Notes under the pieces: generated by a model
What the model saw: only the letters and a program-made list of their open reading frames with translations
Databases searched by the model: none
Told to the model about the DNA's origin: nothing
Part shown: one piece after another, positions 19,031 through 61,400 of the stretch
Layout: every line of letters begins with the position of its first letter
How positions within the stretch are numbered: the stretch's first letter is position 1
Translations under genes and position numbers: made by a program
DNA from: a phage
Strand: one strand, 5' to 3'
Length of the DNA stretch: 64,000 bases
Sequence record: OZ335964.1

Positions 19031-20023
19031 TTAGTAATGGCTAAAACCTTCGGTTACATCTTCAACCACATAGTAACGATGACAGCGCATTTTGGCATTC
19101 GCATAATCTTTCGGGATACTTACAACGTGACGCGGATCAACTTTACATTTAATGATTCTGCCTCGTCCACCGCCATAGTGCGGAATATAGTGTTTCGCTG
19201 CAACATGGAGGCCATTAGAGCAAGTACGGTCATCATCTGGGTCCACGTCTTTACGCTTCATTTTAACCGTGCGCCCTGGGCTATTATCAAACGTATGCGT
19301 AAAGAAATCTTTATAATCAACATCAACACGTTTCCATGCATAGAAACAACCATCTTCCCCGATCTCAATGTCGTTGTGCTCTAAGAAGTCAAACAGACGA
19401 TCTACGGCCTTACGGCTAGGGTTTTTCTTGCACTTCTCAAAGAAGTTCAGATAGTGCGTATATGGCTTATTCTCTTTAATCGACTCCACAACTCGACGAG
19501 TCAGATTATTATCAAGAACAATATTATGATAATACACAATACCATTTTCGATACGGAAAGCGCCGTGATAATATACTTCAACCGCTTTCTTAATGTCAAT
19601 CAGCGTAATTGCTTTAATGAAATCATTCTGCTTAACTGCTTCCAGTGCTTCATTAAAGTTAACATGTGATGGATCAGCAGTATAAACAATGTCACCACAT
19701 GTAATAGTAATAAACTTAGTTGAGGCTATGGCTACGATTTTTGAGGAAGTAGTCACGGGCTTTTTTGCGCGTTCACCGCCTTTTCCTTTACTGGTTTTAC
19801 GGCGTGCTTTACGTTTTTCTAGTGCCTTGCGACCTTCCGCTACTGCGTCTTTCTGAATCAGTAATACACGGGAGGCAGTGCGACGAGATACACCAAATGC
19901 TGCCGCAAGTGCTTCGCGGGTAGTAAACTTACCTTCGCCCCACTGTTTAGCCAGTTTGATTTGTTTTGCAGAGTCCAGACATTGAACGTTACGGTCAGAG
20001 ACGGTGATTTTTGCTTTAGTCAT
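19031..20023 (-). CDS. rIIB: rIIB protein
   Basis: N-terminal HTH plus conserved C-terminal blocks (NPSRKAVDRLFDFL, FYAWK, FDNSPG, DDDRTCSNGLHV, HVVSIPKDYANAKMR, YVVEDVTE); directly downstream of rIIA; start set to M4 (AGAGGA SD abuts M1). Confidence 0.75.
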   Translation of the reverse strand: MTKAKITVSDRNVQCLDSAKQIKLAKQWGEGKFTTREALAAAFGVSRRTASRVLLIQKDAVAEGRKALEKRKARRKTSKGKGGERAKKPVTTSSKIVAIASTKFITITCGDIVYTADPSHVNFNEALEAVKQNDFIKAITLIDIKKAVEVYYHGAFRIENGIVYYHNIVLDNNLTRRVVESIKENKPYTHYLNFFEKCKKNPSRKAVDRLFDFLEHNDIEIGEDGCFYAWKRVDVDYKDFFTHTFDNSPGRTVKMKRKDVDPDDDRTCSNGLHVAAKHYIPHYGGGRGRIIKCKVDPRHVVSIPKDYANAKMRCHRYYVVEDVTEGFSHY

Positions 20024-20039
20024 AGTATTCATTCCTCTA

Positions 20040-20084
20040 TTAGTGGGCGACTCTCGCCGCCCGATTCACATCATTATACCAGAA
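20040..20084 (-). promoter_or_regulatory. candidate rIIB promoter (extended -10 TGgTATAAT) with stem-loop in the leader
   Basis: Minus strand reads TGGTATAAT just after the mini-ORF stop, then GGGCGGCGAGAGTCGCCC hairpin, then AGAGGA SD. Confidence 0.4.
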
Positions 20085-20216
20085 TTATTTTGCTTCTACA
20101 ACCTTGCGGATTGTGCGGTCTGATACATTATAGATTCGTGCCAGTTCGCCTTTAGTCAAGCCGCGAGCGTATTGTTTACGGATGGTTTCTTTCTGGATAG
20201 CGGTCAGTTTAGTCAT
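20085..20216 (-). CDS. small HTH protein (43 aa) between rIIA and rIIB
   Basis: Not in ORF track; ATG with GAGGTGA SD directly after rIIA stop; MTKLTAIQKETIRKQYARGLTKGELARIYNVSDRTIRKVVEAK is a classic HTH resembling the rIIB N-terminal module. Confidence 0.5.
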   Translation of the reverse strand: MTKLTAIQKETIRKQYARGLTKGELARIYNVSDRTIRKVVEAK

Positions 20217-20227
20217 AATATCACCTC

Positions 20228-22336
20228 TTAAAATTTAACATTCTTAACCAGTTTCATAAAGTCTTGTGCTCGTTTGTCGTTGTGCAGAATACGATACCAG
20301 TTATCTACAATATCATACAGTAACGGGCTATTCTCTTTAAACTTCGCACAAACTGCTTTAATTCGTTCGTTTGCTGCCGTGAATTTTTCATCACAAATCT
20401 TTTTAGTTTCTTCGTCCATAATCCAACGGGTGTGAAGGAGTAACTTGGAAACCACTTTATTATAATGACGACCGTACAGTCTGTCAATAAATTCTGGAAC
20501 ACAGCGTTCTAATTCATCGTCATGATACAACATAGTGATCACACCCAGATATTCGCCATACCCCAGATGATTGGTCTTAACCTTCTTAGCCAGACCAGCC
20601 AGCTTACCGCGAACAAATTCTAGCGCACATTCCAGTTGTTCGTCAACGAGATATTTTTGTGTCTCATTACGGGTAATAATATACTTTGTTACCCCGAAGT
20701 AGTCAAGCGCCGTGTGTAATGTATTTTCATTATAGATCGATTGACGGCTACGGCTTTCGAATGCATCACCCACGCGGAACATGTGCAAGCCTGATAACTC
20801 GCGAATCTCTGCCGCTTTCATGTGATGGCTGGTTTTATGCCAACTGTCACCGATCTTTTCCACAATATACACGTTAGGCAGCTTAGGAGTCGCTTCACGC
20901 TGTACACGTTCTGTCTTCTCCGGCTTAACTGCTTTAGCACGCAGGTCGTCGGCCTCGGATACCTTAATCACGGTCATTTCAGATTCATCATAATACTGTT
21001 TGATGTACTCGAAAGTCTCCATATGTTTTTCGTTGTTCTGACGGAACACCAGTACCTTTTTATTGATGCCGTATTCCTGGACCATGCCGTTAAGAGTCAG
21101 TGCACGCAGTTTCGGTTTATCGGTATCATCAATAAGACATGTAATATCTTCTTTATGCATCCATACAAAATGCGTAATGTTGTATTGACTGCTAACGAAA
21201 GCAGGGCGCAATTTACTGATTGTATGTCGAGTACGATACAGAGTATACACTTGACCTTCTACGTCATTAGGCGAATCTTTACCAGCATTAACAAACTTAT
21301 TATAGATTTCTACCGGATCATCCCATTGTCCGATCTTACCCATCTTGCTAATAATATTGCGTTGAGTCGATGAATACTCGCTCATAAATTGCGCAAGTTT
21401 GCGCTCTGTTTTAATGTTGGCGATCTTTTCTTTAACCTTTTCCAACATCATTTCATTGATTTCTGCAATGCGTTTTTCGATGTTCGCTTTAGTCTCAATT
21501 GACAAGTGAACTTCTTCACGCGATGGCATCAGGTCCAGATCACCCAACTCAAAATTAATGTAAATGGTCTGGTGCTGGCGGTTTACAGCTTCTAACCATG
21601 TTCCGCGAACATATTCATACGGGATCGGATACTGGATCTTACCCATGATTGCATATACCACATAGGAATCGTTATCACGTCCATTACACACATAATAATT
21701 ATCAAAGCTAGGGAAATAATTAATTTCGATGGCATTGATATTAGGTTTGTGTTCCCCAAAATGACGCAGTACAAATTGTGCTTCTCGATGCCATGTCTGA
21801 ATATCTTTTTCCTTCACCGGAATAGTGATTTTCAGACCGTTGTCTTCATAGGTCGGTTCGTCGAAAATCTGCACCATTTTCGGCATAGAGTTTTGCACGA
21901 ATGCAGTAAAGCCATAAGCACGACCATTGTAGTAGTTTACGATTGTAAAGGTGTCGGTGTAGCTATAAGCAGATTTCGCACCTAAACCAAAAGATCCGAT
22001 ATAATCATTAGTCTGGTCTTTGGTTGATTCAAAGTAAACAGTAAACAGTTGTTCTAATTCTTTCTTAGACGGAATACCAGTACCATAATCACGCACAGAA
22101 AAATACGGTTCGATTGCAGTCGGTAAATGAATATCAAACGGACGATCTAAGGTTCCGGCTTCTTTGTGAGTGTCGGTAGCATTACATGAATACTCACGGA
22201 CGCAAGCACGCTCACAATATTGATAAGTGTTCTTAGAAAGCACCATAAAAGCCTTGCTACTTGCTTTCAGTGAAAAATCAACCGCACCGCTCAAGTCACT
22301 GCCAAATACTTCTTCATTATCAATATGCATTTTCAT
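20228..22336 (-). CDS. rIIA: rIIA protein (GHKL ATPase-like N-terminal domain)
   Basis: 702 aa; N-box VREYSCNATD and G1-box VRDYGTGIP of a GHKL fold; GAGGATT SD; adjacent to rIIB. Confidence 0.8.
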   Translation of the reverse strand: MKMHIDNEEVFGSDLSGAVDFSLKASSKAFMVLSKNTYQYCERACVREYSCNATDTHKEAGTLDRPFDIHLPTAIEPYFSVRDYGTGIPSKKELEQLFTVYFESTKDQTNDYIGSFGLGAKSAYSYTDTFTIVNYYNGRAYGFTAFVQNSMPKMVQIFDEPTYEDNGLKITIPVKEKDIQTWHREAQFVLRHFGEHKPNINAIEINYFPSFDNYYVCNGRDNDSYVVYAIMGKIQYPIPYEYVRGTWLEAVNRQHQTIYINFELGDLDLMPSREEVHLSIETKANIEKRIAEINEMMLEKVKEKIANIKTERKLAQFMSEYSSTQRNIISKMGKIGQWDDPVEIYNKFVNAGKDSPNDVEGQVYTLYRTRHTISKLRPAFVSSQYNITHFVWMHKEDITCLIDDTDKPKLRALTLNGMVQEYGINKKVLVFRQNNEKHMETFEYIKQYYDESEMTVIKVSEADDLRAKAVKPEKTERVQREATPKLPNVYIVEKIGDSWHKTSHHMKAAEIRELSGLHMFRVGDAFESRSRQSIYNENTLHTALDYFGVTKYIITRNETQKYLVDEQLECALEFVRGKLAGLAKKVKTNHLGYGEYLGVITMLYHDDELERCVPEFIDRLYGRHYNKVVSKLLLHTRWIMDEETKKICDEKFTAANERIKAVCAKFKENSPLLYDIVDNWYRILHNDKRAQDFMKLVKNVKF

Positions 22337-22350
22337 AATATAATCCTCAC

Positions 22351-22608
22351 TTAATTAAAATCTTCTTTGTCCATCTCTGCGTAGATTGCATCCCACGCCC
22401 ATAAATCAATAAACGCATTATATGTCACGGTGCAATCGTTGTCAATCACTTCTTTCGCATATTTCTTGATGTTTTCGTAGGAAACTTGCGGATTAATTTT
22501 GTTCTTCCGAAGGTGCGCATATTCATACCTCAAACATTTCATAAACAGGTCCATCGATTTCTTTTCTCGATGACACTTGGCGATCATAAAATCAAAACTT
22601 CGACTCAT
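22351..22608 (-). CDS. hypothetical protein (85 aa)
   Basis: ATG with AAGGAG SD. Confidence 0.5.
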   Translation of the reverse strand: MSRSFDFMIAKCHREKKSMDLFMKCLRYEYAHLRKNKINPQVSYENIKKYAKEVIDNDCTVTYNAFIDLWAWDAIYAEMDKEDFN

Positions 22609-23390: not shown

Positions 23391-23429
23391 GGGAGACTCC
23401 CATTATAGAGAATCTCCCTTGTATGTCAA
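23391..23429 (-). promoter_or_regulatory. early promoter/stem-loop cassette (variant)
   Basis: Minus strand reads TTGACA-tacaa-GGGAGATTCTC-TATAAT-GGGAGTCTCCC. Confidence 0.5.
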
Positions 23430-23989
23430 CTAAAATTTAAAGATGCAAACTCCCCGTGATGAATTTTTGCATATTCATCATATGCTCTAGCGGCTTCCTC
23501 CTGAGTAGCAAACGATCCTATGTATTTTCTGTATCCGTTTATCCTTATTTGTGCTTGCCACGGTCTTTTGCTAGATCCTTTGCGATGAGTAACACCATTA
23601 TATATGCTCGTGCACCCGTCCATTTTCTTTTTATTGTACATGTTTTGTTGTTGTGTTGCCTCCCGTAAATTTGGTGGATTGTTGTTTTCTGGATTCCCGT
23701 CTATGTGGTCTATTACCTTAACCTGTGTTCCATATTCAAGAAACCAGACAATTCTATGTACAAGATATGTAGATGTTCTCTTTTTAACCTTATTGTAAAC
23801 ATCTATTGCCAAATGACCGTAATTTAACTTTTTTGTTTTTACTTTATCACCGACTCGGTAGAAATATCCCTCTGGTAGACCATTAAAAGACGGACTATTT
23901 GTTTTGTGATATAGAACACCTTCCGTGTGTTCAAATCTGCGTTTTAATTCCTCTTGAATTTCAGTATTCCAAAATTTCGCACTTTTCAT
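23426..23989 (-). CDS. HNH homing endonuclease (HNH_3 + AP2 domain)
   Basis: IDHIDGNPENNNPPNLREATQQQN HNH motif; C-terminal AP2-like GVTHRKGSSKRPWQAQIRINGYRKYIGSFATQEEAARAYDEYA; ATG 1 nt after the topo II large-subunit stop. Confidence 0.8.
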   Translation of the reverse strand: MKSAKFWNTEIQEELKRRFEHTEGVLYHKTNSPSFNGLPEGYFYRVGDKVKTKKLNYGHLAIDVYNKVKKRTSTYLVHRIVWFLEYGTQVKVIDHIDGNPENNNPPNLREATQQQNMYNKKKMDGCTSIYNGVTHRKGSSKRPWQAQIRINGYRKYIGSFATQEEAARAYDEYAKIHHGEFASLNFS

Positions 23990-23990
23990 A

Positions 23991-25814
23991 TTATGACGCC
24001 ATCCATGCCTTCCTCATGTCTGAATCTTCACTATAGAGCAAATCGAATAGCTCTTTATAGTTTTCCGGTAACGTGATGATTTCCATTACAGGATCGTTGA
24101 TCACGCGATGATAATCTGATTCTGTAAGCGATGCTAACCCTTTGATATATCGAATGTTGTAACCTTTGATATTATCGCGATCGTTCTCGAAATCTTCTAG
24201 GTCATAATACCATCGAACATCATCACCTTTCTTTGGTTCCGCAATGATAATAGGTGTTTTGATAAACCGGATTCGTCCATCTTCGAACAATTCAGGCCAA
24301 CGAGCAAAGAAAGAGATCAGACTAGGTTTAATAGACCCGATGCCGTCAGTATCAGCGTCAGTCATAATCGCAATATTTTTGTATTGCATAACTTCCAGCG
24401 CATCAACACCAAATTGCAAACCAGTGATCGCCATGATGTTAAAAATTTCGGCGTTCTTAACGATCTTTGCCTCCGGTTGTTCCCACGTTGTAAGAGTTTT
24501 GCCTCGCAACGGGAAACCGCCATGTAAATCTTGATCACGTACAGAGATCAGATAGTTGATCGCGGAATCACCTTCCGTCAAAAACAGGGTAGTTTCTGCG
24601 TCAGTTCCAATAAGGTTAGCTTTAACGTGTTTTGCTACCTTAGCCCGTTTTGCTGCCTTTGCTGCCTTAGTCGCTGCCGCTTTATCTGCTGCCTCTTTGC
24701 GTGCCAAAACTACAGCAATAATAGGCATGATAATGTTTTCTTTCTTCGCAATGACTTTAGCCAGTTTTTTAAAATCCAGATCAATGTGTCGCTTGATATC
24801 ACCAGTTGGATTAGTCAAGCGTTCTTTTGTCTGTGAATCAAAACGAAGGTTAGGCAATTCACGAACAATAAGAATACAGGTCAATCCAGACTTAACCGCA
24901 GCTTTAGTAACATCAACCTTATATTCTTTCTTGATTCGTTTTACAATCTCTTCACAAAGATCATCTGTCACGTAGTCTACGTGTGTTCCCCCGTTTTTGG
25001 TAAACAGACCATTAGCAAATGATACTGATTTAAAACCTTCACCTTCAACCGCAGGAACTAGGGCAAGTGAAAAGTTTTTATCTTCAATGACAAACGGATC
25101 ATCATTGTATAGTTTAGCATAATCCTTGAACTTACTAACAATACGTTTACCATTAAACTTAAACGTGATCTTAGGAAAGATTACGCTCAATGATTGCAGA
25201 CGATCATGAACAATATCTAAAACAGAGTTGTCCATCATATAACCTTCGAAGTGGTCGAAGTCTGGGCAAAATGTAACCTTTGTTCCCTTCAATTTTGATG
25301 GTTTTGATGACCATGTGATATTTTCAGCACCGTTTGTGCACTGTACGGTCATTTCTGTTTCGCCGTCACAGGTCACACCAGTAAACCAATCGCTAAAGAA
25401 ATTTGACAACGACGATCCTACGCCGTTCATCCCTTGCGTGAGTCGATTTGTATCATCAAAGTTAGACCCTGCTTTTGTTCGTGTCCAAGCGGCTACAGGT
25501 TGCGGAATCTGCGTGCCCTCTGGGGTAGTAACCATATGTTGAGGAATACCGCGACCATTGTCTGTTACCGTAACAATATTGTTTTGGATATCGACGCTAA
25601 TCACATTGGCAAATTCAAAGTTAGTGCGGATCGCCTCGTCTACAGAGTTGTCGATGATCTCATCAATGATTTTAACCAGTCCAGGAACGTATGAAATTTT
25701 TGTCCACTTACCGAACAGGAAACGTTGATGTTCTTCGTATGTAGTTGACCCTATGTACATCCCAGCACGCTTAAGGACATGTTCACGATCAGATAAAATG
25801 CGGAACTCACTCAT
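23991..25814 (-). CDS. 39: DNA topoisomerase II large subunit (GyrB-like; gp39 and gp60 fused)
   Basis: 607 aa; GHKL N-box IIDNSVDEA, G1 DNGRGIP, C-terminal TOPRIM (LFLTEGDSA, IMTDADTDG); contiguous frame, so no gene-60-type split or bypass. Confidence 0.85.
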   Translation of the reverse strand: MSEFRILSDREHVLKRAGMYIGSTTYEEHQRFLFGKWTKISYVPGLVKIIDEIIDNSVDEAIRTNFEFANVISVDIQNNIVTVTDNGRGIPQHMVTTPEGTQIPQPVAAWTRTKAGSNFDDTNRLTQGMNGVGSSLSNFFSDWFTGVTCDGETEMTVQCTNGAENITWSSKPSKLKGTKVTFCPDFDHFEGYMMDNSVLDIVHDRLQSLSVIFPKITFKFNGKRIVSKFKDYAKLYNDDPFVIEDKNFSLALVPAVEGEGFKSVSFANGLFTKNGGTHVDYVTDDLCEEIVKRIKKEYKVDVTKAAVKSGLTCILIVRELPNLRFDSQTKERLTNPTGDIKRHIDLDFKKLAKVIAKKENIIMPIIAVVLARKEAADKAAATKAAKAAKRAKVAKHVKANLIGTDAETTLFLTEGDSAINYLISVRDQDLHGGFPLRGKTLTTWEQPEAKIVKNAEIFNIMAITGLQFGVDALEVMQYKNIAIMTDADTDGIGSIKPSLISFFARWPELFEDGRIRFIKTPIIIAEPKKGDDVRWYYDLEDFENDRDNIKGYNIRYIKGLASLTESDYHRVINDPVMEIITLPENYKELFDLLYSEDSDMRKAWMAS

Positions 25815-32746: not shown

Positions 32747-33310
32747 TCACTGTATATTTTTACTTCTTTGCTTTCCTATCCAGATCCGTCTAACTGTTTC
32801 CGCATTAACATCATATATTTTTGCGATCTTTGCCGCAGATCCGGTTCCTTTTAGAGTTTTGATTTCTTCAATCTGATCTTTGGTTAATTTAGCCCAATGG
32901 TGTGCATCACCATAACACGAACTCAGACCGTGTGTCAATGCATGAATCTGATTTTCTGATTGTGTAACCCATTCAAGATTATATAGGTCATGGTTTCTTT
33001 TGTTTCCATCGATATGATTAACAAACGGCAAATTGTTTACGTTTGGTATAAACGCTTCTGCTTTTGCTCTGTGTATGTATATCGATAGAGATTTAACCCT
33101 AGACCCTGAACTAGTTTTATTACCGTAAGGATCTCTGATTCTTGCTACGGCGTATCCACCGCTTCTTCCGGCTACAGATTCTCTATAAATCTTTCCTGTT
33201 TTCTTGTTTCTAATGCGTCCATATGAGCTAACCTCGTAGCCTGGCATTTCGACGCCCATATAAACAAGGTCTTTCCATTCTTCTGGATGTTCGTCACAAT
33301 ACCGTTTCAT
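32747..33310 (-). CDS. HNH homing endonuclease (NUMOD4 + HNH_3 + C-terminal HTH)
   Basis: GYEVSSYGRIRN NUMOD4 motif; VNHIDGNKRNHDLYNLEWVTQSEN HNH; C-terminal HTH AAKIAKIYDVNAETVRRI. Confidence 0.8.
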   Translation of the reverse strand: MKRYCDEHPEEWKDLVYMGVEMPGYEVSSYGRIRNKKTGKIYRESVAGRSGGYAVARIRDPYGNKTSSGSRVKSLSIYIHRAKAEAFIPNVNNLPFVNHIDGNKRNHDLYNLEWVTQSENQIHALTHGLSSCYGDAHHWAKLTKDQIEEIKTLKGTGSAAKIAKIYDVNAETVRRIWIGKQRSKNIQ

Positions 33311-61365: not shown

Positions 61366-61400
61366 GGGAGTATTTTACTACTCCCATTTCATGCTGTCAA
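61366..61400 (-). promoter_or_regulatory. early promoter/stem-loop cassette (PeSL-like)
   Basis: Minus strand reads TTGACA-N9-GGGAGTAGTAAAATACTCCC. Confidence 0.55.

What the first reader, a model, noticed from the sequence alone, without database searches (positions are those of the whole stretch)
20033..20227. Mini-ORF encoding a free-standing HTH between rIIA and rIIB
A 43-codon ORF (20085-20216) starts at an ATG with a GAGGTGA SD directly after the rIIA stop. It encodes MTKLTAIQKETIRKQYARGLTKGELARIYNVSDRTIRKVVEAK, which looks like a duplicated copy of the HTH at the N-terminus of rIIB. It is followed by a TGgTATAAT element and a GC hairpin ahead of rIIB. The classic rIIA-rIIB junction is a short gap in T4 as I recall it, so an extra DNA-binding module here may regulate rIIB or act with it.
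Basis: seen in the sequence. Interest (0 to 1): 0.55.

Follow-up and report, generated by a model that had tools for sequence, protein, structure and literature searches.

The report
Stand-alone HTH gene between rIIA and rIIB
RB49-like (Krischvirus) phages carry a real, strongly conserved 43-codon gene for a tiny DNA-binding-type (helix-turn-helix) protein between rIIA and rIIB; it resembles the module normally fused to the front of rIIB, is already annotated as a hypothetical protein, and its function is untested.

Summary
The 43-codon ORF (20216..20085) has an 8-nt Shine-Dalgarno match 11 nt after the rIIA stop. An extended -10 promoter and a GC hairpin follow it, ahead of rIIB. The window is a Krischvirus. 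The ORF is RB49p274 / phrog_15481, present in 59/59 Krischvirus records and in four deeper metagenomic lineages, always 43 codons and always between rIIA and rIIB. It is under purifying selection (dN/dS 0.00-0.33) and is the best-conserved gene at the locus (71-77 % identity; rIIA 39-42 %). AlphaFold gives a confident three-helix HTH; the protein is 5 kDa, pI 10.4. A profile of rIIB N-terminal HTHs containing no mini-ORF sequences hits it at 41-45 bits, above the neighbouring rIIB's own HTH. It starts where rIIB starts in T4. An exhaustive search shows the module belongs to a broad HTH family (tandem arrays, HNH homing endonucleases), so descent from rIIB is favoured by position and profile rank but not proven. 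The promoter-hairpin is a known PeSL cassette. Function is inferred only. Verdict: real gene, modest novelty, a three-cistron variant of the rII locus.

The parts
20228..22336 (-). rIIA (702 aa). Its stop codon lies 11 nt upstream of the mini-ORF ATG.
   Evidence: ORF list. Annotated as RIIA in all related records. Weak GHKL ATPase Pfam hits.
20459..20487 (-). Perfect-consensus sigma-70 promoter (TTGACA-17-TATAAT) inside the 3' end of rIIA, about 243 nt upstream of the mini-ORF ATG. It could give a short transcript covering the mini-ORF.
   Evidence: 12/12 match. Near-consensus promoters sit at analogous positions in L005 (4080-4109) and L006 (2338-2367). Function not shown.
20221..20227 (-). 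Shine-Dalgarno GAGGTGA of the mini-ORF, directly after the rIIA stop.
   Evidence: Sequence. GAGGTGA or GGTGAT is retained in all five lineages, with 4-11 nt between the rIIA stop and the ATG.
20085..20216 (-). Mini-ORF: 43 codons encoding a 5-kDa basic tri-helical HTH protein (RB49p274 / phrog_15481).
20096..20101 (-). Weak -35 element (TTGTAG, 3/6) of the rIIB promoter. It lies inside the last codons of the mini-ORF, 17 nt upstream of the -10.
   Evidence: Annotated as minus_35_signal in GEC-3S. Sequence. GGTTGTAGAAGC is also conserved in L005 and L006, though it is coding sequence there.
20073..20081 (-). Extended -10 element TGgTATAAT, the promoter part of the PeSL.
   Evidence: Annotated -10 in GEC-3S. 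Extended -10 elements are present in L005, L006 and L021, and degenerate in L023.
20045..20062 (-). GC-rich stem-loop GGGCGGC-GAGA-GTCGCCC, the stem-loop part of the PeSL. It is the likely attenuator of read-through from rIIA/mini-ORF and would sit near the 5' end of the rIIB transcript.
   Evidence: Fold. A hairpin is present in all five lineages with unrelated sequences and a shifting position relative to the -10. Terminator activity was shown experimentally only for another PeSL stem-loop (PMC2839356). No T-run follows it, and no Rfam family matches.
20033..20038 (-). Shine-Dalgarno AGAGGA of rIIB, 9 nt upstream of the ATG at 20023.
   Evidence: Sequence. The same arrangement occurs in L006, L021 and L023.
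19031..20023 (-). rIIB (330 aa from the second ATG; the alternative ATG is at 20032).
   Evidence: phrog_609 E = 4e-106.
19850..19990 (-). rIIB's own N-terminal HTH module (aa 12-58), a diverged copy of the same module family.
   Evidence: rIIB-N profile 29-35 bits. Iterated profile aa 12-58.
22417..22445 (-). Perfect-consensus sigma-70 promoter upstream of rIIA, with a stem-loop 24 nt downstream (PeSL-like). Probable start of the rIIA/mini-ORF transcription unit.

Best explanation
The mini-ORF is a genuine early gene encoding a 43-residue, strongly basic, three-helix HTH protein.

**Expression.** It is expressed as the distal cistron of the rIIA unit, with a strong ribosome-binding site 4-11 nt after the rIIA stop. 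A PeSL cassette (sigma-70 promoter plus stem-loop attenuator) separates it transcriptionally from rIIB and gives rIIB its own promoter. RB49-type phages lack MotA and middle promoters.

**Relationship.** The protein belongs to the same HTH module family as the N-terminal domain of rIIB. It occupies exactly the position where that domain begins in T4.

**Origin (inferred).** The rIIB N-terminal HTH module duplicates in tandem, as seen in other lineages. In the Krischvirus ancestor the first copy became a separate cistron when a stop codon and a PeSL came to lie between the copies. The free copy kept the canonical sequence, while the copy still attached to rIIB diverged.

**Function (inferred).** It binds nucleic acid through helix 3 (SDRTIRKVV, invariant in all lineages) and acts as a detachable DNA-binding accessory of the rIIA/rIIB module. 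It is unlikely to be a dedicated repressor of the adjacent hairpin.

**Shown versus inferred.** Shown: gene reality, selection, fold class, synteny, family relationship, PeSL anatomy. Inferred: origin by split, DNA binding, and any functional link with rIIA or rIIB.
For: **Real gene**
- Present in 59/59 Krischvirus records, 54 with identical protein.
- Five further homologues, all exactly 43 aa, 98-69 % identical.
- The order rIIA, mini-ORF, rIIB is kept in L005, L006, L021/22 and L023.
- dN/dS is 0.00-0.33 over ten lineage pairs with dS about 0.7 to saturated, and it is the only frame open in all five lineages.
- It is more conserved than its neighbours: 71-77 % identity, against rIIA 39-42 %, rIIB 54-62 % and topoisomerase gp52 67 %.

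**Fold and charge**
- Pfam CENP-B_N scores above its cut-off.
- AlphaFold pLDDT 90.7, helices at 6-18, 22-28 and 33-41.
- Best structural neighbours are DNA-bound HTHs of IstA, gamma-delta resolvase, CENP-B and NarL (TM about 0.7-0.8).
- pI 10.4, net charge +6 to +7 in all lineages.

**Link to rIIB**
- T4 rIIB aa 7-45 share 41 % identity with it.
- A profile of six rIIB N-termini, with no mini-ORF sequences in it, scores the mini-ORFs 41-45 bits (E about 1e-12). The window's own rIIB N-terminus scores 29-35 bits. No shuffled decoy falls below E = 0.1 and no unrelated window ORF below E = 0.04.
- That score ranks in the top 1 % of 285 generic modules that were themselves the best matches in 1.84 billion proteins.
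- The 11-nt spacer after the rIIA stop is the same length as the T4 rIIA-rIIB spacer.
- Six-frame scans of 16 rII loci find the module only at rIIB N-termini (1-3 copies) or as this stand-alone ORF.
- Tandem amplification of the module within rIIB is seen directly: three copies in L005 and two in IME250.

**PeSL**
- The anatomy matches the cassettes of Arbiol et al. (PMC2839356).
- About 15 similar elements lie on the same strand of the window.
- PeSL-like sequences were reported between the two cistrons of split gene 43 in Aeromonas phages, a precedent for a PeSL sitting inside a split gene.
- RB49 has no MotA or middle promoters (PMC1524935).
Against: - There is no transcript, ribosome-profiling or proteomic evidence for the 5-kDa product. 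No paper held in the library deals with this ORF.
- Sequence does not single out rIIB as the source. The nearest neighbours by identity (50-57 %) are HTHs of HNH_3 homing endonucleases (P0024, P0042) and small free-standing HTH proteins. The best rIIB module (Jiaodavirus, 50 %) ranks only 6th-15th of about 200.
- Only 1 of the 149 best database-wide relatives has an rIIB core, while 22 carry HNH_3.
- Distant rIIB HTHs score no better than generic modules on the rIIB-N profile.
- The mini-ORF's own profile scores T4 rIIB only 12.7 bits and the neighbouring rIIB not significantly.
- A 43-residue HTH has no obvious dimerisation surface, so specific DNA binding by the protein alone is uncertain.
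- No conserved candidate operator was found.
- From classical genetics (my recollection of the r1589 deletion and the Crick et al. 1961 frameshift work), the N-terminal segment of T4 rIIB is dispensable for growth on lambda lysogens. The module's role, even within rIIB, is therefore unknown.
Confidence: 0.6

Rival explanations
1. Independent acquisition: the mini-ORF is a generic HTH module captured from elsewhere. The most likely source would be the C-terminal DNA-binding HTH left behind by a homing endonuclease that once sat between rIIA and rIIB. Its likeness to rIIB N-termini would then reflect only shared membership of a broad HTH family.
For: - The closest non-family relatives by identity include HNH_3 endonuclease C-terminal HTHs (P0024 21/37, P0042 20-21/38).
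- 22 of the 149 best relatives carry HNH_3.
- The window itself encodes an HNH endonuclease with such a C-terminal HTH at 33310-32747.
- Homing endonuclease genes commonly insert between genes in T4-like phages (established knowledge).
Against: - No trace of a nuclease domain flanks the ORF. Only 11 nt separate it from rIIA, and a PeSL follows it.
- Strong purifying selection and a fixed 43-codon length across deep lineages are not the behaviour of a decaying relic.
- The window's own HNH-associated HTH scores only 11 bits on the rIIB-N profile, whereas the mini-ORFs score 41-45.
- The ORF starts where rIIB starts in T4.
- The module is demonstrably prone to tandem duplication within rIIB.
Confidence: 0.2
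2. Local transcription factor: the mini-protein binds the inverted repeat or promoter immediately downstream (the PeSL). It would thereby repress or activate rIIB, or autoregulate read-through.
For: - The HTH gene lies next to a promoter that carries an inverted repeat.
- In L006 and L021 the inverted repeat encloses the -10 hexamer, as a repressor operator would.
- Iyer et al. regard rIIB itself as a transcription factor (PMC7824862).
Against: - Helix 3 is invariant (SDRTIRKVV) in all lineages. The hairpin sequences are nevertheless unrelated (GGGCGGC, GCGCCTC, ACGTCCTGA, GCGTCCC, GCGTCCTA) and their position relative to the -10 shifts. Structure is conserved, not sequence.
- The same kind of promoter-plus-hairpin occurs about 15 times in this window and about 50 times per genome, with varied stems (PMC2839356). 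The element is generic, not a private operator.
Confidence: 0.12
3. Not a functional protein: a chance ORF, or a short upstream ORF whose translation matters (for example for coupling or mRNA stability) while its peptide does not.
For: It is very short (43 codons), and no expression data exist.
Against: - dN/dS is 0.00-0.33 with near-saturated synonymous sites.
- 28 of the 43 residues are invariant.
- AlphaFold gives a confident three-helix model.
- It scores above the Pfam cut-off for an HTH family.
- It is better conserved than rIIA, rIIB and gp52.
Confidence: 0.03

Closest known systems
N-terminal HTH domain of rIIB (e.g. T4 rIIB residues 3-47)
   Same: Same tri-helical module, with the motif LT..Q...I...Y..G.T..ELA...GVS..TIRRV. 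An rIIB-N profile scores the mini-ORF 41-45 bits. It starts 11 nt after the rIIA stop, exactly as T4 rIIB does. In the rII loci surveyed, the module occurs only in connection with rIIB.
   Different: It is not fused to the rIIB core. It lies on a separate cistron, in a different frame from rIIB, with a promoter and stem-loop in between. It is more basic (net +7, against +1 for the T4 module). It is much more conserved than the rIIB-attached copy in the same genomes. Monophyly with rIIB modules is not established.
Generic simple tri-helical HTH modules (Pfam CENP-B_N, HTH_7, HTH_23, HTH_28, HTH_38, Sigma70_r4 group), including the C-terminal HTH of HNH_3 homing endonucleases and tandem HTH arrays
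   Same: Same fold and motif, 50-57 % identity to the best examples. Small free-standing versions of 49-60 aa exist elsewhere (P0077, P0081, P0087).
   Different: Those relatives occur in other contexts (endonucleases, 2-6-copy arrays) and are not syntenic with rII. The mini-ORF family itself (phrog_15481) is confined to the Krischvirus clade.
PeSL (promoter-early stem-loop) cassettes of RB49/phi1 (Arbiol et al. 2010, PMC2839356)
   Same: The spacer between the mini-ORF and rIIB has the PeSL layout: upstream stop codon, sigma-70-type promoter, G+C-rich stem-loop, Shine-Dalgarno, ATG. The variants in different lineages reproduce the published subclasses (stem-loop downstream of the -10, or overlapping it).
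   Different: The -35 is weak (3/6) and lies inside the coding sequence. The promoter relies on an extended -10. This particular PeSL flanks a conserved known gene (rIIB) and not an ORFan in a hyperplastic region. The paper's main text does not mention rIIA or rIIB; its figures and supplement were not examined.
Split gene 43 (g43A/g43B) of Aeromonas T4-like phages
   Same: A gene that is a single cistron in T4 is two cistrons elsewhere, and PeSL-like sequences were reported between the cistrons. This is the same architecture proposed here for the HTH module and rIIB.
   Different: For gene 43 both halves are parts of one enzyme. Here the downstream rIIB keeps its own HTH, so the split followed, or amounts to, a duplication.

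Membership tests
rIIB N-terminal HTH module | Significant match to a profile built from rIIB N-termini only | tested here: met
   41-45 bits, E about 1e-12 in a 929-sequence database containing 280 shuffled decoys and 631 window ORFs. Ranks in the top 1 % of 285 generic modules.
rIIB N-terminal HTH module | Physically part of an rIIB polypeptide (fused to the rIIB core) | tested here: not met
   It is a separate ORF in a different frame from rIIB (193 nt between the two ATGs), with stop codons and a promoter in between.
rIIB N-terminal HTH module | Encoded immediately downstream of rIIA | tested here: met
   The gap after the rIIA stop is 4-11 nt in five lineages. T4 rIIB has an 11-nt gap.
rIIB N-terminal HTH module | Closer to rIIB modules than to any other HTH (monophyly) | tested here: inconclusive
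   Nearest neighbours by identity are generic or HNH-associated modules at 50-57 %. The best rIIB module is 50 % identical and ranks 6-15 of about 200. Forty columns are too few for a supported tree.
Pfam HTH clan (CENP-B_N, PF04218) | Score at or above the curated gathering threshold | tested here: met
   26.0 bits against a 21.2 cut-off. All other HTH families score below their cut-offs.
Pfam HTH clan (CENP-B_N, PF04218) | Three-helix bundle with helix 2, a turn and helix 3 | tested here: met
   AlphaFold pLDDT 90.7, helices 6-18, 22-28 and 33-41. TM 0.72-0.79 to the DNA-bound HTHs of IstA, CENP-B and NarL, 0.71-0.74 to gamma-delta resolvase.
Pfam HTH clan (CENP-B_N, PF04218) | Binds DNA | not testable with these tools
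   Only indirect support: pI 10.4, net charge +7, invariant helix 3.
phrog_15481 | Full-length match to the family profile | tested here: met
   E = 3e-34, residues 1-43 of 43. The family is annotated as 'unknown function'.
PeSL cassette | Sigma-70-type early promoter in the intergenic spacer | tested here: met
   TTGTAG-17-TGgTATAAT. The -35 is weak (3/6), so the consensus scan missed it. Stronger versions occur in L006 and L021 (TTGACA-17/18-TAcAAT/TATAAT).
PeSL cassette | Adjacent G+C-rich stem-loop, followed by a Shine-Dalgarno and the ATG of the downstream gene | tested here: met
   7-bp stem with 6 G-C pairs at 20062-20045, then AGAGGA and the ATG. Present in all five lineages.
PeSL cassette | AT-rich tract upstream of the -35 | tested here: not met
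   The -35 lies within the mini-ORF coding sequence. [quoted passage not shown]
PeSL cassette | Demonstrated promoter and terminator activity | not testable with these tools
   Shown by Arbiol et al. for other PeSLs only (PeSL206/205 promoter, PeSL211/210 stem-loop).
Homing-endonuclease remnant | Residual HNH or GIY-YIG catalytic sequence next to the HTH | tested here: not met
   The flanks are the rIIA stop (11 nt away) and the PeSL. No nuclease family hits the ORF.
Sigma-70 region 4 | Pfam Sigma70_r4 score at or above the gathering threshold | tested here: not met
   21.1 bits against a 24.1 cut-off.

The most novel reading that the evidence does not exclude
The stand-alone HTH is a dedicated third subunit of the rII counter-defence module in Krischvirus-type phages. 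One possibility is that it tethers the membrane-associated rIIA/rIIB complex to phage DNA. Another is that it is the sequence- or structure-specific DNA-binding factor for PeSL stem-loops that Arbiol et al. speculated about, linking the rII locus to PeSL-mediated regulation or recombination. Either would explain why it is the most conserved gene of the locus. It would also give the first functional handle on the rIIB N-terminal HTH, a domain conserved across Straboviridae, Ackermannviridae and Felixounavirus that, as I recall the classical genetics, is dispensable in T4.
Probability: 0.1. Interest if true: 0.6.

Novelty: new variant of a known kind. Interest (0 to 1): 0.35.

Why it matters
rIIA and rIIB are historically central genes whose mechanism is still unknown. 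Recent work shows that they counter RexAB and that rIIB itself triggers gasdermin and Tmn defences. None of the papers read here, nor the full-text search for rIIB together with helix-turn-helix, addresses the conserved N-terminal HTH of rIIB.

Krischvirus-type phages express that kind of module as a separate 5-kDa protein that is under stronger constraint than rIIA or rIIB. The module can therefore be deleted, tagged or synthesised there without touching the rIIB core. That makes its role directly testable: DNA binding, regulation, or interaction with rIIA or rIIB.

The locus also gives a clean example of HTH-module copy-number variation within rIIB (1-3 copies) and of a PeSL cassette sitting at a probable gene-split point. 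If the protein proves to be an ordinary small regulator, the finding is routine annotation of one hypothetical gene.

Tried and rejected
- **BLASTP of the mini-ORF against the adjacent rIIB:** no similarity (E = 26). The 'copy of its own rIIB HTH' idea was dropped.
- **tblastn of the mini-ORF against 50,697 phage records:** only Krischvirus was found.
- **Pattern scan of viral contigs:** two Krischvirus contigs, plus one unrelated HTH protein in a high-GC replication module (L010). Not informative.
- **Single rIIB record in the '60-80 %' identity band:** it was only a short T4 fragment. The nearest cultured outgroup is Citrobacter phage Miller at 53 %.
- **Read-through or frameshift fusion:** the mini-ORF is out of frame with both rIIA (2120 nt between the ATGs) and rIIB (193 nt), and stop codons intervene.
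- **Split from the rIIA C-terminus:** no HTH module occurs in any rIIA C-terminus across 16 loci.
- **Known RNA family in the spacer:** none at E <= 1.
- **Intrinsic terminator:** the hairpin has no T-run, and the terminator scan finds nothing there.
- **Solved structures by sequence:** no rIIB and no close HTH.
- **Acinetobacter phage 35-aa ORF between rIIA and rIIB:** it contains no HTH module, overlaps the rIIB start, and looks like a gene-caller artefact.
- **Literature on expression in Krischvirus or on the rIIB HTH:** nothing specific found. Desplats et al. 2002 is not held in the library.
- **Weak resemblance of T4 'KVTISGD' (after its HTH) to Krischvirus rIIB 'KITVSDR' (before its HTH):** considered as a trace of a former linker, but too short to count as evidence.
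Full report
**1. What is in the sequence.**
The genes of this region lie on the minus strand.
- rIIA runs 22336..20228.
- Eleven nucleotides after its TAA stop (GAGGTGATATT, of which GAGGTGAT is complementary to the 16S rRNA 3' end), a 43-codon ORF begins at 20216 and stops at 20085. It encodes MTKLTAIQKETIRKQYARGLTKGELARIYNVSDRTIRKVVEAK.
- The 61-nt spacer to rIIB contains an extended -10 element, TGgTATAAT (20081-20073). A weak -35 (TTGTAG, 20101-20096) lies 17 nt upstream, inside the ORF.
- A 7-bp GC stem with a GAGA loop follows (20062-20045), then AGAGGA and two ATGs.
- The second ATG (20023) has proper spacing from the Shine-Dalgarno and is the start annotated in related genomes, giving a 330-aa rIIB.

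**2. Where the window comes from, and whether the ORF is known.**
The locus is 96-97 % identical to 59 Krischvirus genomes such as RB49, phi1, JSE and GEC-3S. All 59 encode the ORF, and 54 encode the identical protein. It is annotated as RB49p274 'hypothetical protein' in the reference genome, and once as 'DNA binding HTH domain protein'. It forms its own PHROG, phrog_15481, of unknown function. The ORF as such is therefore not new.

**3. Is it a real gene?**
A search of 5.8 billion proteins found five more homologues, all exactly 43 aa, down to 69 % identity. Their contigs keep the order rIIA, 43-codon ORF, rIIB.
- Across ten lineage pairs dN/dS is 0.00-0.33, while synonymous sites run from about 0.7 to saturated. 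The annotated frame is the only one open in all five lineages.
- Between the window and the two most distant lineages the mini-protein is 71-77 % identical. By comparison rIIA is 39-42 %, rIIB 54-62 % and the topoisomerase subunit gp52 67 %.

This is a gene under strong purifying selection, and the chance-ORF reading is essentially excluded. No expression data exist in the literature I could search.

**4. What the protein is.**
- Pfam places it in the HTH clan. CENP-B_N scores 26.0 bits against a cut-off of 21.2, and Sigma70_r4, HTH_28, HTH_7 and Mor score below their thresholds.
- AlphaFold2 gives a confident model (pLDDT 90.7) with three helices at 6-18, 22-28 and 33-41.
- Its best structural neighbours are DNA-bound HTH domains of the IS21 IstA transposase, gamma-delta resolvase, CENP-B and NarL/LuxR regulators (TM about 0.7-0.8). 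The Foldseek E-values are weak only because the domain is tiny.
- It is 5 kDa, with pI 10.4 and net charge +6 to +7 in every lineage.
- Helices 2 and 3 (TKGELAR-YNVSDRTIR-VVE) are invariant.

**5. Relation to rIIB.**
The adjacent rIIB shows no BLASTP similarity to the mini-protein (E = 26). T4 rIIB residues 7-45 do (16/39 identical).

I built a profile from the first 55 residues of six single-HTH rIIB proteins (T4, Dhakavirus, Jiaodavirus, Karamvirus, Pseudotevenvirus, Bragavirus), with no mini-ORF sequences in it.
- It scores the mini-ORFs 41-45 bits (E about 1e-12 in a 929-sequence database).
- It scores the Krischvirus rIIB's own N-terminus 29-35 bits.
- It scores three separate modules in the 459-aa rIIB of lineage L005 at 35-54 bits.
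- No shuffled decoy came below E = 0.1, and no unrelated window ORF below E = 0.04.

The mini-ORF also starts 11 nt after the rIIA stop, the same spacing as rIIB in T4: TAA-TAAGGAAAATT-ATG in T4, TAA-GAGGTGATATT-ATG here.

Six-frame scans of 16 rII loci from ten other genera or families, plus the metagenomic lineages, found the module in only two settings: at rIIB N-termini in one to three copies, and as the stand-alone ORF of the Krischvirus clade. It never occurs in rIIA. None of the other genera has a credible ORF between rIIA and rIIB.

**6. How specific is that relationship?**
An exhaustive HMMER search of 1.84 billion representative proteins with the mini-ORF profile returned 304 hits at E <= 0.001. 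Most of the best 149 are not rIIB.
- Most are proteins with two to six tandem copies of the same module.
- 22 of the 149 carry an HNH_3 homing-endonuclease domain.
- A few are free-standing proteins of 49-60 aa.
- One (P0066) has an rIIB core.

By identity, the mini-ORF's nearest neighbours are such generic modules (50-57 %). The best rIIB module (Jiaodavirus, 50 %) ranks 6th-15th of about 200. Conversely, on the rIIB-N profile the mini-ORFs rank in the top 1 % of 285 generic modules (median 22.7 bits, maximum 44.2), while distant rIIB HTHs fall in the generic range.

My reading is that the module belongs to a broad tri-helical HTH family of which the rIIB N-domain is one branch. Position, locus-restricted occurrence, the demonstrated tendency of the module to duplicate in tandem within rIIB, and profile rank together favour descent from the rIIB module. 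Forty alignment columns cannot prove it. Capture from a homing endonuclease remains a live alternative.

**7. The promoter and hairpin.**
Arbiol et al. (PMC2839356) described about 50 'PeSL' cassettes per RB49 or phi1 genome. Each is a strong sigma-70 promoter plus a G+C-rich stem-loop lying between an upstream stop codon and the downstream Shine-Dalgarno and ATG. They defined five subclasses by the position of the stem-loop relative to the promoter. They showed promoter activity for one PeSL and terminator-like activity for one stem-loop.
- The spacer here fits the subclass with the stem-loop downstream of the -10.
- L005 has the same layout with an unrelated stem. In L006 and L021 the stem-loop encloses the -10. 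In L023 the promoter is degenerate but the hairpin remains.
- About 15 similar elements lie on the same strand of this window.
- No Rfam family matches, and there is no T-run.

The hairpin therefore most likely attenuates read-through from the rIIA/mini-ORF unit. Because transcription from TGgTATAAT should start near 20066, the hairpin would also sit at the 5' end of the rIIB mRNA. Both points are inferences.

RB49 has no MotA and no middle promoters (PMC1524935). As I recall, T4 rIIB is served by MotA-dependent middle promoters, so here a sigma-70 cassette would give rIIB its independent promoter. A perfect TTGACA-17-TATAAT also lies inside the rIIA 3' end (20487-20459) and another upstream of rIIA (22445-22417).

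**8. Mechanism, with its limits.**
*Shown:* a conserved, selected gene for a basic tri-helical HTH; tight linkage to the end of rIIA; separation from rIIB by a PeSL; membership of the HTH family that includes the rIIB N-domain.

*Inferred:*
- The protein binds nucleic acid through the invariant helix 3.
- It arose when a duplicated rIIB N-terminal module was cut off as its own cistron at a PeSL. Arbiol et al. reported PeSL-like sequences between the cistrons of split gene 43, which is a precedent.
- It serves as a detachable accessory of the rII system.

The local-repressor idea is weakened because the recognition helix is invariant while the hairpin sequences differ completely between lineages.

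What the module does, even within rIIB, is unknown. Recent rII papers deal with RexAB, gasdermin and Tmn, and map effects to the rIIB core (residue 219), not the HTH. Iyer et al. simply class rIIB as a transcription factor. As I recall, classical genetics (the r1589 deletion and the Crick et al. 1961 frameshift work) indicate that the N-terminal segment of T4 rIIB is dispensable on lambda lysogens.

**9. Verdict.**
The ORF is an already annotated but uncharacterised gene. What is new here is:
- its assignment to the rIIB-type HTH module family;
- its position at the ancestral rIIB start;
- its exceptional conservation;
- the copy-number variation of the module in rIIB;
- the identification of the downstream element as a PeSL.

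This is a variant architecture of a known system with an untested function. Interest is moderate to low (0.35). The value could rise if the protein proves to be a third working part of the rII module.

Noticed in passing
L005:4685-6064 (metagenomic relative); also L020:619-2202 (Serratia phage IME250) and L014:772-2070 (Aeromonas phage phiAS5): rIIB proteins differ in the number of N-terminal HTH modules. There are three tandem copies in the 459-aa rIIB of L005 (aa 3-45, 57-101, 143-186) and two in IME250. phiAS5 has one profile-detected copy, plus two further HTH-like repeats visible by eye at its N-terminus. rIIB length ranges from 299 to 527 aa across the genera surveyed.
   Followed up: partly
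window 20459-20487 (-): A perfect-consensus sigma-70 promoter (TTGACA-17-TATAAT) lies inside the rIIA coding sequence, about 243 nt upstream of the mini-ORF. Near-consensus promoters sit at similar positions in L005 and L006. It may drive a short transcript covering the mini-ORF.
   Followed up: partly
window, minus strand: -10 hexamers at 61377, 59233, 58710, 55580, 49243, 48156, 43365, 38043, 25882, 23407, 22422, 14888 and others: About 15 promoter-plus-GC-stem-loop (PeSL-like) elements lie on the early-gene strand. One subgroup shares near-palindromic stems, GGGAGTA...TACTCCC (stems starting at 61387, 59243 and 43355). Another shares GGGGATC...GATCCCC (55598, 14906).
   Followed up: partly
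window 32747-33310 (-): A 187-aa HNH-type homing-endonuclease-like ORF whose C-terminus (LTKDQIEEIKTLKGTGSAAKIAKIYDVNAETVRRI) is a weak member of the same HTH module family (mini-ORF profile E = 0.002-0.005). The HNH assignment is read from the sequence and was not confirmed with Pfam.
   Followed up: partly
window 23426-23989 (-): A 187-aa ORF directly downstream of the topoisomerase large-subunit gene (23991-25814). By eye it looks like an HNH plus AP2-type homing endonuclease (HIDGNPENN...; C-terminal YIGSFATQEEAARAYD). Not run against any library.
   Followed up: no
window 22337-22352 (-); L005:2315-2330; L021:413-428: The 16 nt before the rIIA start codon plus the ATG (TGAGGATTATATTATG) are identical in the window, L005 and L021, although their rIIA proteins are only about 40 % identical. 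This suggests a nucleotide-level constraint on the rIIA translation-initiation region.
   Followed up: no
window 20073-20150 (-) compared with L005:4549-4630: The 3' half of the mini-ORF and the following TTCTGGTATAATG are 77-86 % identical at the nucleotide level between the window and L005 (pS only 0.48, against 0.65-0.78 for the other lineages). Either the embedded -35 adds constraint, or this segment was exchanged by recombination.
   Followed up: no
P0006-P0023 (database proteins): Many uncharacterised proteins consist of 4-7 tandem copies of this HTH module. Examples are P0006 (5 copies plus a C-terminal hydrophobic helix) and P0017 (7 copies). Others fuse arrays to GIY-YIG or HNH endonuclease domains (P0015, P0016).
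   Followed up: partly
L017:791-898 (Acinetobacter phage vB_AbaM_AB-Navy-v2): A 35-aa ORF is annotated between rIIA and rIIB. It has no HTH module, overlaps the rIIB start, and looks like a gene-caller artefact.
   Followed up: yes
window 20021-20032 (-): rIIB has two in-frame ATGs 9 nt apart. The first directly abuts the Shine-Dalgarno with no spacer, so the second (20023) is the likely start. The mini-ORF and rIIB both begin with ATGACTAAA (MTK), which is not conserved in other lineages and is probably coincidence.
   Followed up: yes
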